From IMG/VR virus record IMGVR_UViG_3300023487_000051: a DNA stretch of 4,572 nucleotides; one strand, 5' to 3'. The notes beneath the pieces were generated by a model. It saw nothing but the letters and a program-made list of their open reading frames with translations. It was not told the DNA's origin and did not search any database. The position numbers were made by a program, and so were the translations under genes. Shown in pieces: positions 2,251-4,572 of this stretch. The stretch is from a virus. Taxonomy: Duplodnaviria; Heunggongvirae; Uroviricota; Caudoviricetes. Positions within the stretch are counted from its first letter, which is position 1; each line of letters opens with the position of its first letter.

Positions 2251-2634
2251 TCAGAATGGGATGGAATCGTCGTATACAGGAGTGTTCTGCTGGTTACTAC
2301 TTTGCTGCTGCGGGCCATTTCCTGAAGCTGTAAATCCAATCTTTGCATTCAGTAATTCAAGAGTAATTGATTGACCATTTTGCCCCTGATAAACATCAAC
2401 CCTGATGTTTTCTCCGGTAATTTCCACAATGCCACCTTCAACAAGAACACTACGGTAGTAATCCGCTTGCGCTCCTGGCTTGGCAAATACAACGGCGCTG
2501 TAGTTTGTCCATTCTTTCTTTTTTGTCTGGCGATCGTAATACTGAACGCCAGCACGGATGTTGAATCCGATATTTTCCCCGGCCTGAAACTCTCTTGCGG
2601 GCTTGTTTAGTCTTACAGTAATCGAATGTGCCAT
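2251..2634 (-). CDS. ssb: phage single-stranded DNA-binding protein, short form, 127 aa, C-terminal tail DDSIPF
   Basis: Track ORF 2251..2724 begins at a non-ATG codon inside erf. The ATG at 2634..2632 overlaps the erf TAA (TAATG), giving MAHSITVRLNKPAREFQAGENIGFNIRAGVQYYDRQTKKKEWTNYSAVVFAKPGAQADYYRSVLVEGGIVEITGENIRVDVYQGQNGQSITLELLNAKIGFTASGNGPQQQSSNQQNTPVYDDSIPF. The terminal acidic DD-x-IPF and the Gly/Gln-rich linker before it are the SSB signature (bacterial SSB ends DDDIPF). It sits directly downstream of erf, as in phage recombination modules. Confidence 0.75.
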   Translation of the reverse strand: MAHSITVRLNKPAREFQAGENIGFNIRAGVQYYDRQTKKKEWTNYSAVVFAKPGAQADYYRSVLVEGGIVEITGENIRVDVYQGQNGQSITLELLNAKIGFTASGNGPQQQSSNQQNTPVYDDSIPF

Positions 2635-3239
2635 TAAGCAGCAGCTCCTTCTAATTCGTCTCGTCTGATGTTGTAAACGTCCTGCGCTTTGTGCTGCTCC
2701 GGTGTGCCTTCGAGCATCTTCCACGCTTTGGCGAACGCCTGTTTAAGCTCTTCCACGGTGTTTTTCTGCAATGCTGCGTCAGTGAATGCTTTTAGAACCT
2801 GTTCAGGTGTAGGTGATAGTTTTGATTGCTTTGCTGCTGCGTTCTGCTGATGTTTATGCTCGTCGGTATCTGCATCTTTCGCATCATCAATGCCGAACAA
2901 ACCATTGAGGCAATACTTGCGTGCATAAGAGCTTGTAGCTCCCGTAACTTGTGCAGAATCCATTCCTTTCTTGCTTTCTTCCTCTCGTGCAAGGGCGGTT
3001 GCCGTATGACTGTTTTCGCCATCGGTAATAGTTGCCGTGGCTTTCACGTAATACCGATCACCAATCAACACAACTTCATCGCTGATTGATAAAAACAGGC
3101 CATTCAGTAACGGCTTAACGCCTTCAAGAATGTCTTCGCAGCTTCTGTATTTATATTTACCGAATGAGTTGTACTGATTCTTTGGCGCGTTCAGATTCTC
3201 CTGAATAGCTGCCAGTCTTGCGTAAAATTCTTTGCTCAT
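2634..3239 (-). CDS. erf: Erf-family single-strand annealing recombinase (essential recombination function protein), 201 aa
   Basis: Track ORF 2634..3269 starts at a TTG; the ATG at 3239..3237 gives MSKEFYARLAAIQENLNAPKNQYNSFGKYKYRSCEDILEGVKPLLNGLFLSISDEVVLIGDRYYVKATATITDGENSHTATALAREEESKKGMDSAQVTGATSSYARKYCLNGLFGIDDAKDADTDEHKHQQ..., which matches my recollection of the P22 Erf N-terminal annealing domain followed by a variable C-terminal domain. Stop TAA overlaps the ssb start. Confidence 0.85.
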   Translation of the reverse strand: MSKEFYARLAAIQENLNAPKNQYNSFGKYKYRSCEDILEGVKPLLNGLFLSISDEVVLIGDRYYVKATATITDGENSHTATALAREEESKKGMDSAQVTGATSSYARKYCLNGLFGIDDAKDADTDEHKHQQNAAAKQSKLSPTPEQVLKAFTDAALQKNTVEELKQAFAKAWKMLEGTPEQHKAQDVYNIRRDELEGAAA

Positions 3240-3249
3240 ATGATTGTTC

Positions 3250-3420
3250 TCAGAATGGACACGGCCCAAGGAAATAACGCTGATTTAATACTTCGACTCG
3301 GGACAAGTTAAGGCATACCCGCATTCCTTCGCGGTCGCCATTATGTCGATACCAGAGAGCTTTCTGCGTGTACATGCGCCTCTGTAACTTGCTCTCCTTC
3401 ACTGTGGTTGCAAGTGACAT
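3250..3420 (-). CDS. small basic hypothetical protein, 56 aa, immediately upstream of erf (Arf-position ORF; not in ORF track)
   Basis: Hand translation from ATG 3420..3418: MSLATTVKESKLQRRMYTQKALWYRHNGDREGMRVCLNLSRVEVLNQRYFLGPCPF. Strong SD GAAGGAGAT (plus-strand 3425..3433, reverse complement) 4 nt upstream of the ATG. Its stop lies 10 nt before the erf ATG, which itself has only a weak SD, so coupling is plausible. It overlaps the 52-aa ORF 3341..3499 by 80 nt in another frame, so only moderate confidence. Confidence 0.45.
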   Translation of the reverse strand: MSLATTVKESKLQRRMYTQKALWYRHNGDREGMRVCLNLSRVEVLNQRYFLGPCPF

Positions 3421-3499
3421 GAATATCTCCTTCGTTACCGATTAATTCTTTCATCTGACGAATGAATTCTTCGTCTGACCAGTTATCTGTAAAACTCAT
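3341..3499 (-). CDS. small acidic hypothetical protein, 52 aa, start coupled to the kil-like ORF (not in ORF track)
   Basis: Hand translation from ATG 3499..3497: MSFTDNWSDEEFIRQMKELIGNEGDIHVTCNHSEGEQVTEAHVHAESSLVST. The ATG overlaps the TGA of the Kil-like ORF (ATGA). It overlaps the 56-aa ORF in a different frame; which of the two (or both) is translated cannot be decided from sequence alone. Confidence 0.45.
   Translation of the reverse strand: MSFTDNWSDEEFIRQMKELIGNEGDIHVTCNHSEGEQVTEAHVHAESSLVST
3425..3433 (-). promoter_or_regulatory. Shine-Dalgarno GAAGGAGAT for the 56-aa Arf-position ORF, embedded in the 52-aa ORF
   Basis: Plus strand atctccttc is the reverse complement of GAAGGAGAT; 4 nt upstream of the ATG at 3420. 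Confidence 0.5.
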
Positions 3500-3648
3500 T
3501 TCCTGCGATACCATGGAAGGTTGATAGCTAATTTCATCTCTTTATTTGCTTCAAGCCACATTTTGGAATCACCAATAAATCTGGCTATTACTGCTTTGTT
3601 TTGTGCAGCACGAAGTATCTGGTGATTGATGGCTATTTCATTGCGCAT
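3496..3648 (-). CDS. kil: Kil-like small protein, 50 aa (putative host cell-division inhibitor), overlapping the 3' end of cIII (not in ORF track)
   Basis: Hand translation from ATG 3648..3646: MRNEIAINHQILRAAQNKAVIARFIGDSKMWLEANKEMKLAINLPWYRRK. SD GAGGT 7 nt upstream. The start overlaps the cIII 3' end by 16 nt in another frame, the same arrangement lambda has for cIII and kil. The segment IARFIGDSKMWLEA resembles what I recall of lambda Kil (unverified). Stop overlaps the next ATG. Confidence 0.6.
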   Translation of the reverse strand: MRNEIAINHQILRAAQNKAVIARFIGDSKMWLEANKEMKLAINLPWYRRK

Positions 3649-3764
3649 AATAAGACCTCAACTCTTTTCCATCCGTCACGTAATTTACGGGTGATTCGTT
3701 CAAGTAAAGATTCATTTAGTTGGAAGGCACCCATGCGAGCGCCTCCCGCGATTGCGTAAATCAT
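3633..3764 (-). CDS. cIII: CIII homolog (FtsH protease inhibitor, lysogeny regulator), short variant of 43 aa (not in ORF track)
   Basis: Hand translation from ATG 3764..3762: MIYAIAGGARMGAFQLNESLLERITRKLRDGWKRVEVLLCAMK. The stretch ESLLERITRKLRDGWKR is identical to the central amphipathic-helix region of lambda CIII as I recall it (MQYAIAGWPVAGCPSESLLERITRKLRDGWKRLIDILNQPGVPKNGSNTYGYPD). SD AAGGAA 7 nt upstream. C-terminus diverges and is about 11 residues shorter than lambda CIII. Confidence 0.8.
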   Translation of the reverse strand: MIYAIAGGARMGAFQLNESLLERITRKLRDGWKRVEVLLCAMK

Positions 3765-3788
3765 GGGTGGTTCCTTATGTTGGTTTTA

Positions 3789-4572
3789 TTAGTAGGTTAT
3801 TTTTGTTGCGAATACTTCGCCTTTTACGATGGCTGTTATGATATTTTTAGCAACATCTTCTGATGCACCAACCTTGATAAGGTCAGCAAGTATTTTGTTA
3901 TTTACTTCTTTCCGGTGAGCTTTATCCTTTGCTCTACGCTCTTCTTCGTCCTTGATTCTTTTTTCTTCTGCTATTCTGGCTTGCTCTTTTGCTTCAGCCT
4001 CGCGACGGATTCGTTCAGCCTCCTCCTGTGCTTTTCTGCGTTCTGCTTCAATTGCTGCCTGCTTTTCTCTTTCAGCTCGTTCTGCTGCCTCTTTTGCTTC
4101 GCGCTGTGCTCGTTGCTCGGCTTCAATGCGTTCACGCTCTGCACGTTCCGCTGCGGCCTTAGCTTCTGCTTCTCGCCTTGCTGCTGCTTCAATTTCGGCT
4201 TTTGCCTTTGCTTCGGCTTCTGCTCTGGCTTTCTCTTCAGCTTCTCTTTTTAAGCGTTCTTCATGCTCTCGCTTTTCCTGCTCCGCTTTGAGTCTTGCCT
4301 CTTCTCTTTGGCGGTCAAATTCGCGATCCATCAAAATCGCTATTTCATGGTCAGACTCAATTTGCTTTGCGAGAGCTTCAGCTGCTGCCTTAGCTTCTTC
4401 TTCGGCTTTAATCCGCGCCTGTTCCTCTTCATAATCAGTAAGAGGCTGGCGTGCCTTGGCTTTCAGTTCATCAAGGCGATCGCGCACTGTCTTGCGGTTG
4501 GCATCAATTAGCTTTGGAATTTCCTTCAGTTCAGCAACAAGGTCTTTGCCAAGACCATCGAGATATGTTTTC
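3789..4572 (-). CDS. Glu/Arg/Lys/Ala-rich coiled-coil protein (TolA-like low complexity), 3' portion; N-terminus probably beyond the window end
   Basis: Track ORF 3789..4487 begins at a GTG with no SD. Hand translation shows the frame stays open upstream to the window edge (…KTYLDGLGKDLVAELKEIPKLIDANRKTV-RDRLDELKAKARQPLTDYEEEQARIKAEEEAKAAAEALAKQ…REAEEKARAEAEAKAKAEIEAAARREAEAKAAAERAERERIEAEQRAQREAKEAAERAEREKQAAIEAERRKAQEEAERIRREAEAKEQARIAEEKRIKDEEERRAKDKAHRKEVNNKILADLIKVGASEDVAKNIITAIVKGEVFATKITY). Same strand as the operon, 24 nt upstream of cIII. Other frames here are also open, as expected for low-complexity sequence, but only this one looks protein-like. Confidence 0.65.
   Translation of the reverse strand, partial: KTYLDGLGKDLVAELKEIPKLIDANRKTVRDRLDELKAKARQPLTDYEEEQARIKAEEEAKAAAEALAKQIESDHEIAILMDREFDRQREEARLKAEQEKREHEERLKREAEEKARAEAEAKAKAEIEAAARREAEAKAAAERAERERIEAEQRAQREAKEAAERAEREKQAAIEAERRKAQEEAERIRREAEAKEQARIAEEKRIKDEEERRAKDKAHRKEVNNKILADLIKVGASEDVAKNIITAIVKGEVFATKITY
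3910..4430. repeat. low-complexity, internally repetitive coding segment (degenerate GCN/GAR/CGN triplet repeats encoding the AE[KR]A-type motifs); approximate bounds
   Basis: Visible in sequence as recurring gcttc/tgcttc/ctgc units on the plus strand. It explains the multiple long ORFs in several frames on both strands in the track (3915..4253, 3952..4434, 3971..4192). Confidence 0.55.

What the first reader, a model, noticed from the sequence alone, without database searches (positions are those of the whole stretch)
3250..3499. Two small ORFs overlapping by 80 nt in different frames between kil and erf, each with independent translation-initiation evidence
The 52-aa ORF (3341..3499) begins with an ATGA overlap on the kil stop. 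The 56-aa ORF (3250..3420) has a strong SD (GAAGGAGAT) and ends 10 nt before the weakly-SD erf start, the position P22 uses for arf. Either one is spurious, or this is a genuine overlapping-gene pair in a phage early operon. The SD for the second ORF is encoded inside the first ORF's codons.
Basis: seen in the sequence. Interest (0 to 1): 0.55.

Follow-up and report, generated by a model that had tools for sequence, protein, structure and literature searches.

The report
Two overlapping small phage recombination-module genes
Both small overlapping reading frames between kil and erf are real, already-annotated prophage genes, but only the downstream 56-codon gene is under protein-level selection inside the overlap, so this is an ordinary by-product of phage gene packing, not a co-adapted dual-coding segment.

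Summary
On the minus strand, a 52-codon ORF (3341-3499, ATGA with the kil stop) overlaps a 56-codon ORF (3250-3420, SD GAAGGAGAT) by 80 nt, and the second ends 10 nt before erf. The window is 100% identical to an E. coli MS 85-1 prophage. Both ORFs are already annotated as Sf6 gp30/gp29, CUS-3 ECRS218_0052/0053 and HK97 gp42.1/gp42, and fall in PHROG 2123 and 1723.

ORF-B is clearly a gene. It keeps 56 codons down to 46-52% identity. It also occurs without ORF-A, with its own SD, always within about 16 nt upstream of a recombinase gene (Erf, Rad52-like or AAA_24/Sak4-like). pN/pS is 0.13-0.43.

ORF-A is a gene only in its first ~26 codons (pN/pS 0.43 in its own frame, ~1.2 in the others). Its tail inside the overlap shows no constraint: frame-A pN/pS is 1.65, and variants silent in B but changing A outnumber the reverse 12 to 1.

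ORF-B has no similarity to P22 Arf. ORF-A shares only a WSDEEFI motif with it and fails the Pfam Phage_Arf model.

Functions remain untested. This is known, ordinary gene packing.

The parts
3496..3648 (-). kil (50 aa), the upstream gene. Its stop codon overlaps the ORF-A start.
   Evidence: Pfam Lambda_Kil E 4.5e-18; PHROG 2055; annotated kil in RefSeq.
3496..3499 (-). ATGA junction: kil stop TGA overlapping the ORF-A start ATG.
   Evidence: Read directly from the sequence. The same junction is kept in the diverged clade L182-L197.
3341..3499 (-). ORF-A, 52 codons plus stop (Sf6 gp30 / HK97 gp42.1 N-terminus / PHROG 2123).
   Evidence: PHROG 2123 E 2e-40. Annotated in Sf6 and CUS-3, and as WP_001324501.1 in E. 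coli MS 85-1. The exact sequence is on 555 contigs.
3421..3499 (-). The ORF-A-only part (codons 1-26 plus 1 nt). This is the only part of ORF-A with a coding signature. It contains the WSDEEFI motif.
   Evidence: pN/pS is 0.43 in frame A against 1.19 and 1.24 in the other frames. The first 18 codons are shared with RecT-module phages that carry a different tail. The motif is shared with P22 Arf using different Ser, Phe and Ile codons.
3425..3433 (-). Shine-Dalgarno GAAGGAGAT for ORF-B, encoded within ORF-A codons N-E-G-D.
   Evidence: Sequence. A GAAGGAG or GAGG-type SD is kept before ORF-B in all lineages, with or without ORF-A.
3250..3420 (-). ORF-B, 56 codons plus stop (Sf6 gp29 / HK97 gp42 / PHROG 1723). 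Predicted helical hairpin.
   Evidence: PHROG 1723 E 9.4e-36. 56-codon homologues reach 46-52% identity. pN/pS is 0.13-0.43 in its frame. AlphaFold2 pLDDT 91, helices 7-27 and 30-51.
3341..3420 (-). The 80-nt overlap: ORF-A codons 27-52 plus stop, ORF-B codons 1-27.
   Evidence: Frame B pN/pS 0.43, frame A 1.65. Segregating variants split 12 (change A, silent in B) to 1 (silent in A, change B), against a mutational opportunity of 43 to 46, p about 0.001.
3253..3273 (-). ORF-B C-terminal motif F-L-G-P-C-P-F (family hallmark FLGxxPF at the very C-terminus).
   Evidence: Kept, with minor variants (one FIA, one extra residue), in all family members, including those at HMM E 1e-5 to 1e-11; the terminal PF is invariant. 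Synonymous codon differences show the selection is on the protein.
3240..3249 (-). 10-nt spacer between the ORF-B stop and the erf start. The SD for erf is weak, so translational coupling is likely (inferred).
   Evidence: Sequence. The ORF-B stop lies within about 16 nt of the recombinase start in all contexts.
2634..3239 (-). erf (201 aa), the downstream recombinase.
   Evidence: Pfam ERF E 5.1e-44; annotated ERF family protein.
2251..2634 (-). HK97 gp40-like gene ending ...YDDSIPF (an SSB-type C-terminal tip). Context for the recombination module.
   Evidence: ORF translation; annotation. Called SSB-1b in PMC12315714.

Best explanation
These are two separate small cistrons at the entry of the recombination module of a lambdoid/P22-like prophage early-left operon.

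ORF-A
- It starts by termination-reinitiation at the kil ATGA (inferred).
- Its selected part is the N-terminal ~26 residues, an acidic stretch with the motif W-S-D-E-E-F-I.
- Beyond about codon 18 lies a mosaic joint. The same N-terminus carries a 35-aa acidic tail in RecT-module phages.
- In this window the frame simply runs on over ORF-B's ribosome-binding site and first 26 codons until a stop happens to occur. That tail evolves as a passive read-out of ORF-B's sequence.

ORF-B
- It initiates independently at its own strong SD, which is embedded in ORF-A's codons.
- It encodes a 56-residue helical hairpin with the C-terminal hallmark FLGxxPF.
- It always ends within about 16 nt of the start of a recombinase gene (Erf, Rad52-like or AAA_24/Sak4-like).
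- It is most likely a recombination accessory protein, and its translation probably also delivers ribosomes to the weakly SD'd erf start.

Shown: both are conserved, the coding signal switches from frame A to frame B at the ORF-B start, and ORF-B is linked to recombinase genes. Inferred: actual translation of either ORF, the coupling, and any role in recombination.
For: - Both ORFs are annotated in HK97, Sf6 and CUS-3 and match PHROG 2123 and 1723.
- ORF-B occurs without ORF-A in L006-L009, L098, L099, L180, L181, L199, L201 and L204. There it has an intergenic spacer and its own SD and keeps 56 codons.
- ORF-B lies upstream of five groups of recombinase N-terminal domains: Pfam ERF (two groups), Rad52_Rad22 and AAA_24 (two groups).
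- Differences in the ORF-B C-terminal codons are synonymous.
- Nei-Gojobori pN/pS, window against five diverged relatives: A-only region 0.43 in frame A against ~1.2 in the other frames; overlap 0.43 in frame B against 1.65 in frame A; B-only region 0.13.
- In a sample anchored outside the overlap (117 loci), overlap variants split 12 (A changed, B silent), 1 (A silent, B changed) and 4 (both changed). Mutational opportunity is 43 to 46, p about 0.001.
- The ORF-B N-terminal half evolves the same way with ORF-A (pS 0.69, pN/pS 0.39) and without it (0.76, 0.44).
- ORF-A length varies (52, 53, 54, 56, 71, and 36 in L146) while ORF-B stays at 56.
- The ATGA junction and an ORF-A homologue persist in the diverged clade.
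- AlphaFold2 pLDDT for ORF-B is 91.
Against: - There is no expression, initiation-mapping or proteomic evidence for either peptide.
- The A frame stays open 26-30 codons past the ORF-B start in all 5 lineages that have ORF-A, but in only 3 of 7 lineages without it (one-sided Fisher p about 0.07). The tail is also always net acidic (my count on the sequences). A loose constraint on tail length or charge is therefore not excluded.
- Comparison pairs are few and phylogenetically non-independent, and the regions are short (25-29 codons).
- In HK620, HkaM holds the same position upstream of the recombinase but is not homologous. Sak4 plus SSB alone gave as much recombineering as the whole module that includes hkaM (PMC5928155). 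Position next to a recombinase gene therefore does not prove an accessory role.
Confidence: 0.72

Rival explanations
1. This is a true dual-coding overlap. The ORF-A tail (codons 27-52) is itself functional and under selection, so both frames constrain the 80 nt.
For: - The A frame is open for 26-30 codons past the ORF-B start in all five lineages with ORF-A, but interrupted early in 4 of 7 lineages without it.
- The tails are consistently net acidic (my count on the sequences), like the tails of the 35-aa variant and of P22 Arf.
- ORF-A is intact in about 97% of distinct sequences.
Against: - Frame-A pN/pS in the overlap is 1.65, like a non-coding frame.
- Variants run 12 to 1 in favour of changes that alter ORF-A but are silent in ORF-B.
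- ORF-B synonymous divergence in the overlap is not reduced relative to lineages without ORF-A.
- The stop position shifts (52, 54, 56 codons), and L146 truncates ORF-A to 36 aa through a change that is silent in ORF-B.
- By my inspection of the ORF-B codons, only two or three codon junctions in ORF-B can create a stop in frame A. An open frame is therefore cheap to obtain by chance.
Confidence: 0.1
2. ORF-A is not translated into anything functional. Its 5' conservation reflects nucleotide-level constraints next to kil or a recombination boundary sequence, and only ORF-B is a gene.
For: - There is no Pfam or NCBIfam family for ORF-A.
- Within close relatives, the A-only region shows 12 nonsynonymous against 7 synonymous variants, close to neutral.
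- ORF-A is disrupted in a few isolates (L023, L060, L123, L146) while ORF-B stays intact.
- A mosaic joint sits inside it.
Against: - Against diverged relatives, the coding signal is frame-specific: 0.43 in frame A against 1.19 and 1.24 in the other frames.
- The ATGA start at the kil stop is conserved in the diverged clade.
- The N-terminal peptide is kept in frame with three different tails, none with a premature stop.
- The SDEEFI motif recurs in P22 Arf with different codons: Ser AGT against TCA, Phe TTT against TTC, Ile ATC against ATT.
Confidence: 0.12
3. The real product is one ~82-aa fusion protein (ORF-A N-terminus plus ORF-B), made by +1 ribosomal frameshifting, as annotated for HK97 gp42.1.
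For: - The HK97 record encodes an 83-aa in-frame fusion.
- Rare 81-82-aa fusion variants with different junctions exist in public data (P0001, P0005, P0021, P0023, P0024, P0027, P0031).
- The coding signal switches from frame A to frame B.
Against: - ORF-B has its own conserved SD and ATG and exists as a stand-alone 56-codon gene in many loci.
- By inspection, I saw no slippery or stop-codon-stalled +1 site in 3341-3433.
- In the anchored sample, 74 of 75 loci have the two-ORF arrangement.
- The fusion variants have different junctions, as expected for sporadic indels.
- The HK97 record also carries a third single-base insertion, which destroys the conserved ...IPF end of gp40. Its indels may be record errors.
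Confidence: 0.03
4. ORF-B is the spurious ORF and ORF-A is the only gene. This is how RefSeq annotates the source genome.
For: PGAP annotates only ORF-A in E. coli MS 85-1 and annotates nothing, or only one ORF, in many other genomes.
Against: All the comparative evidence listed for ORF-B: 56 codons kept down to 46-52% identity, a stand-alone gene in other contexts, pN/pS 0.13-0.43, a conserved FLGxxPF end, and a confident predicted fold.
Confidence: 0.01

Closest known systems
Shigella phage Sf6 genes 30 and 29; CUS-3 ECRS218_0052/0053; HK97 gp42.1/gp42 (PHROG 2123 and PHROG 1723)
   Same: - Same position (cIII, kil, ORF-A, ORF-B, recombinase).
- Same lengths (159 and 171 nt), same 80-nt overlap, and 97-98% nucleotide identity.
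- The window's ORFs are members of these families.
   Different: - Nothing substantive differs from Sf6 or CUS-3.
- The HK97 record has two extra bases that fuse the two frames.
- Sf6 has a Rad52-like recombinase downstream where this window has a P22-type Erf.
- None of these genes has a tested function. The PHROG label 'recombinase' is only annotation text attached to the family.
P22 Arf (accessory recombination function; Pfam PF17585, PHROG 2445)
   Same: - It is a small acidic peptide gene between kil and erf whose start overlaps the end of kil.
- ORF-A shares the motif (W/F)SDEEFI near the N-terminus.
- According to PMC12315714, citing Poteete et al. 1991, Arf aids Erf-mediated recombination but is not essential for it.
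   Different: - ORF-A has no Pfam PF17585 hit.
- The PHROG 2445 match has E 0.045 over 22 residues.
- hhalign gives probability 9%.
- P22 arf runs to an ATGA junction with erf and has no ORF-B partner. ORF-B has no similarity to Arf at all.
HK620 HkaM (first annotated as arf, upstream of sak4)
   Same: It is a small gene of unknown function immediately upstream of the recombinase gene in a P22-like recombination module (PMC5928155).
   Different: - It is not detectably homologous: HK620 is absent from the ORF-B tblastn hits.
- In HK620, sak4 plus ssb gave as much recombineering as the whole module that includes hkaM.
Out-of-frame overlapping cistrons in phage operons, where one frame is overprinted on the other
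   Same: Same-strand out-of-frame overlap, with the downstream gene's SD inside the upstream gene and ATGA-type junctions between neighbours. This comparison rests on general knowledge of phage gene organisation.
   Different: Here the overprinted stretch (the ORF-A tail) shows no selection of its own. It is a read-through tail, not a second functional coding layer.

Membership tests
PHROG 1723 / Sf6 gp29 / HK97 gp42 family (ORF-B) | Significant full-length match to the family profile. | tested here: met
   E 9.4e-36, residues 1-56 on profile positions 3-58 of 58.
PHROG 1723 / Sf6 gp29 / HK97 gp42 family (ORF-B) | A stand-alone protein of about 56 residues ending in FLGxxPF (a hallmark derived here from the family alignment). 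| tested here: met
   The window's ORF-B ends ...NQRYFLGPCPF. All 13 aligned homologues and the distant representatives end the same way, with minor variants (one FIA, one extra residue) and an invariant terminal PF.
PHROG 1723 / Sf6 gp29 / HK97 gp42 family (ORF-B) | Located immediately upstream of a phage recombinase gene. | tested here: met
   It lies 10 nt upstream of erf in the window. It lies within about 16 nt of ERF, Rad52_Rad22 or AAA_24 genes in all fetched loci.
PHROG 2123 / Sf6 gp30 family (ORF-A) | Significant full-length match to the family profile. | tested here: met
   E 2e-40, profile positions 1-51 of 52.
P22 Arf (Pfam PF17585 Phage_Arf; PHROG 2445), tested for ORF-A | Match to the family model at a significant score. 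| tested here: not met
   No Pfam hit at E up to 10 for any of 9 ORF-A homologues. PHROG 2445 E 0.045, partial match. hhalign probability 9%, 19 columns. BLASTP aligns 7 residues only.
P22 Arf, tested for ORF-A | Gene lies between kil and erf with its start overlapping the end of kil. | tested here: met
   ATGA junction at 3496-3499 in the window. P22 arf overlaps kil by 11 nt.
P22 Arf, tested for ORF-A or ORF-B | Stimulates Erf-dependent recombination in vivo. | not testable with these tools
   This needs phage crosses or recombineering assays.
   No Arf family among the PHROG, Pfam or NCBIfam hits for ORF-B. No Arf-like protein appeared in the ORF-B homologue searches.
Dual-coding overlapping gene pair (both frames selected within the overlap) | Purifying selection detectable in both frames across the shared nucleotides. 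| tested here: not met
   Frame B pN/pS 0.43, frame A 1.65. Variant asymmetry 12 to 1. No extra synonymous constraint on ORF-B when ORF-A is present.
Programmed +1 frameshift fusion | A conserved shift site, and absence of an independent start for the downstream frame. | tested here: not met
   ORF-B keeps its own SD and ATG in all lineages. No shift-prone site was seen by inspection of 3341-3433. The fused forms are rare and have heterogeneous junctions.

The most novel reading that the evidence does not exclude
ORF-B (the HK97 gp42 family) may be an unrecognised, widely shared recombination accessory protein. On this reading, its C-terminal ...FLGxxPF-COOH acts like the ...IPF tip of SSB proteins. 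It would dock onto the SSB-tail-binding site of the adjacent annealing protein, or of host SSB partners, to load or regulate the recombinase.

This would explain why the same 56-residue protein travels with Erf, Rad52-like and Sak4-like recombinases, in modules that usually also encode an SSB ending ...DDSIPF.
Probability: 0.12. Interest if true: 0.6.

Novelty: already known. Interest (0 to 1): 0.27.

Why it matters
This matters mainly for annotation.

- The better-supported gene (ORF-B) is missing from the RefSeq annotation of the source genome and of many other E. coli genomes, while the weaker ORF-A is called.
- The PHROG label 'recombinase' on both peptides has no tested basis.

One biological lead follows. 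A conserved 56-residue protein lies next to recombinase genes of three Pfam families (five N-terminal sequence groups). It is not discussed in the parts I read or searched of a 2025 survey of lambdoid recombination modules (PMC12315714). It could be a cheap target for recombineering or phage-recombination experiments.

Tried and rejected
- Pfam and NCBIfam scans of both peptides gave nothing.
- Foldseek of the ORF-B model against the PDB gave only generic helical hairpins, with no hit at E 0.001 or better.
- Rfam on the whole window gave no family.
- The promoter and terminator scan of 3100-3800 found one promoter-like site against 1.5 expected and no terminator.
- The RNA fold of 3380-3520 gave z = -1.6, with no convincing structure hiding the ORF-B ribosome-binding site.
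- The first locus sets, fetched by ORF-B protein similarity, are biased toward an invariant ORF-B. I did not use them for the frame-asymmetry test. I replaced them with a sample anchored on 20 nt in the ORF-A-only part.
- Single-linkage clustering of the downstream recombinases merged everything, because they share a C-terminal domain. I redid it on the N-terminal 130 residues.
- A literature search for gp42.1, for WP_001324501 and for the phrase 'Erf recombination cofactor' found nothing relevant.
- The 90% cluster that holds ORF-B also contains Erf fragments. On reading the sequences, this is a clustering artefact and not a fusion.
- I considered HK620 HkaM as a homologue of ORF-B and rejected it.

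Full report
**What is there**

All genes in the window read on the minus strand.
- The order is: a large charged protein gene cut by the window end, cIII (3633-3764), kil (3496-3648), the two small ORFs, erf (2634-3239), then an HK97 gp40-like gene ending ...DDSIPF (2251-2634).
- Pfam confirms cIII, kil and ERF.
  - ATGA at 3496-3499 joins the kil stop to the start of a 52-codon ORF (ORF-A, 3341-3499).
  - A 56-codon ORF (ORF-B, 3250-3420) is preceded by GAAGGAGAT at 3433-3425.
  - The two share 80 nt, with ORF-B in the +1 frame.
  - ORF-B stops 10 nt before the erf ATG.
- The window is 100% identical to a prophage of E. coli MS 85-1. Related sequence is present in 1114 of 5426 complete E. coli genomes.

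**Already annotated**

- The segment is 97-98% identical to CUS-3, Sf6, Sf101 and several Stx1a phages.
- Both ORFs are annotated there: Sf6 genes 30 and 29, and CUS-3 ECRS218_0052 and 0053.
- HK97 lists gp42.1 and gp42.
- They match PHROG 2123 (E 2e-40) and PHROG 1723 (E 9.4e-36).
- Neither has a Pfam or NCBIfam family.
- RefSeq's annotation of the source genome calls ORF-A but omits ORF-B.

**ORF-B is a real, independent gene**

- Homologues keep exactly 56 codons down to 46-52% identity, in Yersinia and in Erwinia phage.
- In many loci ORF-B has no ORF-A in front of it. It follows an intergenic spacer and has its own AGGAG or GAGG SD.
- Codon differences in the conserved C-terminus are synonymous (AAT/AAC, CAG/CAA, CGT/CGA, CCG/CCA, TGT/TGC), so the selection acts on the protein.
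- An exhaustive HMM search found only 21 cluster representatives. The credible ones are all 54-60 residues long and end in FLGxxPF, with minor variants and an invariant terminal PF.
- AlphaFold2 predicts a two-helix hairpin with pLDDT 91. It has no informative PDB neighbour.
- In every fetched locus, ORF-B ends within about 16 nt of the start of a recombinase gene. The N-terminal domains of those recombinases fall into five groups:
  - P22-type Erf
  - a second ERF type
  - Rad52_Rad22, as in Sf6
  - two AAA_24/Sak4-like types

**ORF-A is a gene only at its 5' end**

- I fetched a sample by a 20-nt exact match in the ORF-A-only part, so it is unbiased with respect to the overlap. It gave 117 usable loci:
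  - 51 have the window's arrangement (52 + 56 codons).
  - 23 have a 56-codon ORF-A with ORF-B.
  - 42 have the same first 16-18 codons joined to a different 35-aa acidic tail, followed by a RecT module and no ORF-B.
  - 1 is HK97.
- A mosaic joint therefore lies inside ORF-A at about codon 18.
- A diverged clade (L182-L197, L183/L097) keeps kil, the ATGA junction, and an ORF-A homologue (MSIADTWSEDAFVRLMQDLIGSEGG...) overlapping ORF-B.

**Which frame is selected**

- Nei-Gojobori pN/pS, window against five diverged relatives:

| Region | Frame A | Frame B | Third frame |
|---|---|---|---|
| A-only | 0.43 | 1.19 | 1.24 |
| Overlap | 1.65 | 0.43 | 0.96 |
| B-only | 2.80 | 0.13 | 1.29 |

- The coding signal thus switches from frame A to frame B at the ORF-B start.
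- Within the anchored sample, overlap variants were 12 that change ORF-A but are silent in ORF-B, 1 the other way round, and 4 that change both. The two one-sided classes have nearly equal mutational opportunity (43 against 46), giving binomial p of about 0.001.
- The ORF-B N-terminal half evolves alike in lineages with ORF-A (pS 0.69, pN/pS 0.39) and without it (0.76, 0.44). The ORF-A tail therefore adds no detectable constraint.
- ORF-A length varies (52, 53, 54, 56, 71, and 36 in L146). Three or four isolates have lost its start or N-terminus while ORF-B stays intact.
- Points the other way are weak.
  - The A frame is open past the ORF-B start in 5 of 5 lineages with ORF-A against 3 of 7 without (one-sided Fisher p of about 0.07).
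  - The tail is always net acidic (my count on the sequences).
  - By inspection, only two or three codon junctions in ORF-B can generate a frame-A stop.

**The Arf question**

- P22 arf (47 aa, Pfam PF17585) fills the whole kil-erf interval. It overlaps kil at its start and erf at its stop.
- ORF-B has no similarity to it.
- ORF-A shares the start position and the motif (W/F)SDEEFI, encoded with different Ser, Phe and Ile codons.
- Statistical support for ORF-A as an Arf is poor: PHROG 2445 E 0.045, BLASTP over 7 residues, hhalign probability 9%, and no Pfam hit for nine ORF-A homologues.
- I do not file ORF-A as an Arf family member. It may still work like one.

**The fusion question**

- The HK97 record has two single-base insertions in the overlap. 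They fuse the ORF-A N-terminus to the ORF-B C-terminus, giving the 83-aa gp42.1.
- Rare 81-82-aa fusions with other junctions exist in public data.
- The same HK97 record has a third extra base that destroys the conserved ...IPF end of gp40. Its indels may be errors.
- ORF-B's own SD and ATG are conserved, it occurs as a stand-alone gene, and no shift site is apparent. Programmed frameshifting is therefore unlikely.

**Mechanism, with status**

- Shown: both ORFs are conserved, the frame switch in selection occurs at the ORF-B start, ORF-B is linked to recombinase genes, and ORF-B's SD lies inside ORF-A.
- Inferred:
  - ORF-A is translated by reinitiation at the kil ATGA.
  - ORF-B initiates independently.
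  - Termination of ORF-B 10 nt upstream helps ribosomes reach the weakly SD'd erf start.
  - ORF-B is a recombination accessory protein.
- Literature context:
  - P22 Arf aids recombination, but its molecular function is unknown (PMC12315714).
  - In HK620, HkaM occupies the equivalent position but is non-homologous. The sak4-ssb pair alone gave as much recombineering as the whole module that includes hkaM (PMC5928155).
  - The parts I read or searched of the 2025 survey of lambdoid Rec modules do not mention the ORF-B family.
- Speculative lead: the terminal ...PF-COOH of ORF-B resembles the SSB tip (...DDSIPF in this module's gp40-like protein). SSB tips are recognised by RecT proteins (10.1101/2020.04.14.041095) and are needed for Sak4 to bind SSB-coated ssDNA (PMC5928155). 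I did not test this.

**Verdict**

- The pair has been annotated in phage genomes for years, at least in the Sf6, CUS-3 and HK97 GenBank records.
- The overlap is a passive read-through tail and not a co-adapted dual-coding region.
- Interest is low to moderate. Its value lies in correcting annotation and in flagging ORF-B as an uncharacterised companion of phage recombinases.

Noticed in passing
L001 (HK97, AF069529.1) about 1780-1800 and about 2890-2900: The HK97 record has three single-base insertions relative to the window, Sf6 and/or CUS-3. Two are in the ORF-A/ORF-B overlap and fuse the frames into gp42.1. One turns the conserved ...YDDSIPF end of gp40 into ...DDSNPILI. These are possibly sequencing errors in the record.
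   Followed up: partly
L324 (E. coli MS 85-1, NZ_CP146650.1) 3591-3761; window 3250-3420: RefSeq/PGAP annotates ORF-A (WP_001324501.1) but leaves the evolutionarily better-supported ORF-B unannotated. In many other E. coli genomes, neither ORF or only one is called under this segment.
   Followed up: partly
L010 2501-2608 and L206-L314 (RecT-module phages): The first 16-18 codons of ORF-A (MSFTDNWSDEEFIRQM...) also occur joined to a different acidic tail, giving a 35-aa peptide ending DDDSDSE. That peptide overlaps a 102-aa gene upstream of a RecT module. A mosaic joint therefore lies inside ORF-A.
   Followed up: partly
window 2634-2790 (erf C-terminus) and downstream genes in L006, L097, L184, L185: Recombinases with unrelated N-terminal domains (Erf, Rad52-like, AAA_24) that follow ORF-B share a similar C-terminal stretch of about 45 residues (...EL..A.K..W..L.G....K..Y..R..EL...AA). 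P22 Erf has it too. The swapped unit seems to be only the N-terminal annealing domain.
   Followed up: no
window 3459-3478: The SDEEFIR codons form an imperfect palindrome around an EcoRI site (GACGAAGAATTCATTCGTC). It folds as a small hairpin in the predicted mRNA structure. This 20-mer is exact in more than 119 viral contigs from two different recombination-module types.
   Followed up: no
window 3500-3514: This window has an in-frame ATG at 3514, five codons upstream of the ATGA start of ORF-A. HK97, Sf6 and CUS-3 have GTG there. Some database entries start the protein at this codon (MVSQEMSFTDN...).
   Followed up: no
window 3789-4572: The gene upstream of cIII encodes a highly charged, Ala/Glu/Lys/Arg-rich, repeat-like protein (...EAEAKAKAEIEAAARREAEAKAAAERAE...). 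It runs off the window end. It is 322 aa in the source genome and corresponds to Sf6 gene 33, a hypothetical protein.
   Followed up: no
L006, L009, L011 and other Sf6-type loci, downstream of the Rad52-like gene: In the 1.5 kb examined, the ORF of about 155-170 aa that follows the recombinase ends ...PRHAIHAI and not ...IPF. In L006 and L009 a called gene of this size there has an SSB Pfam hit. The Sf6 record notes that the following gene (26) carries 14 residues identical to E. coli SSB. The SSB tail may be encoded separately there.
   Followed up: no
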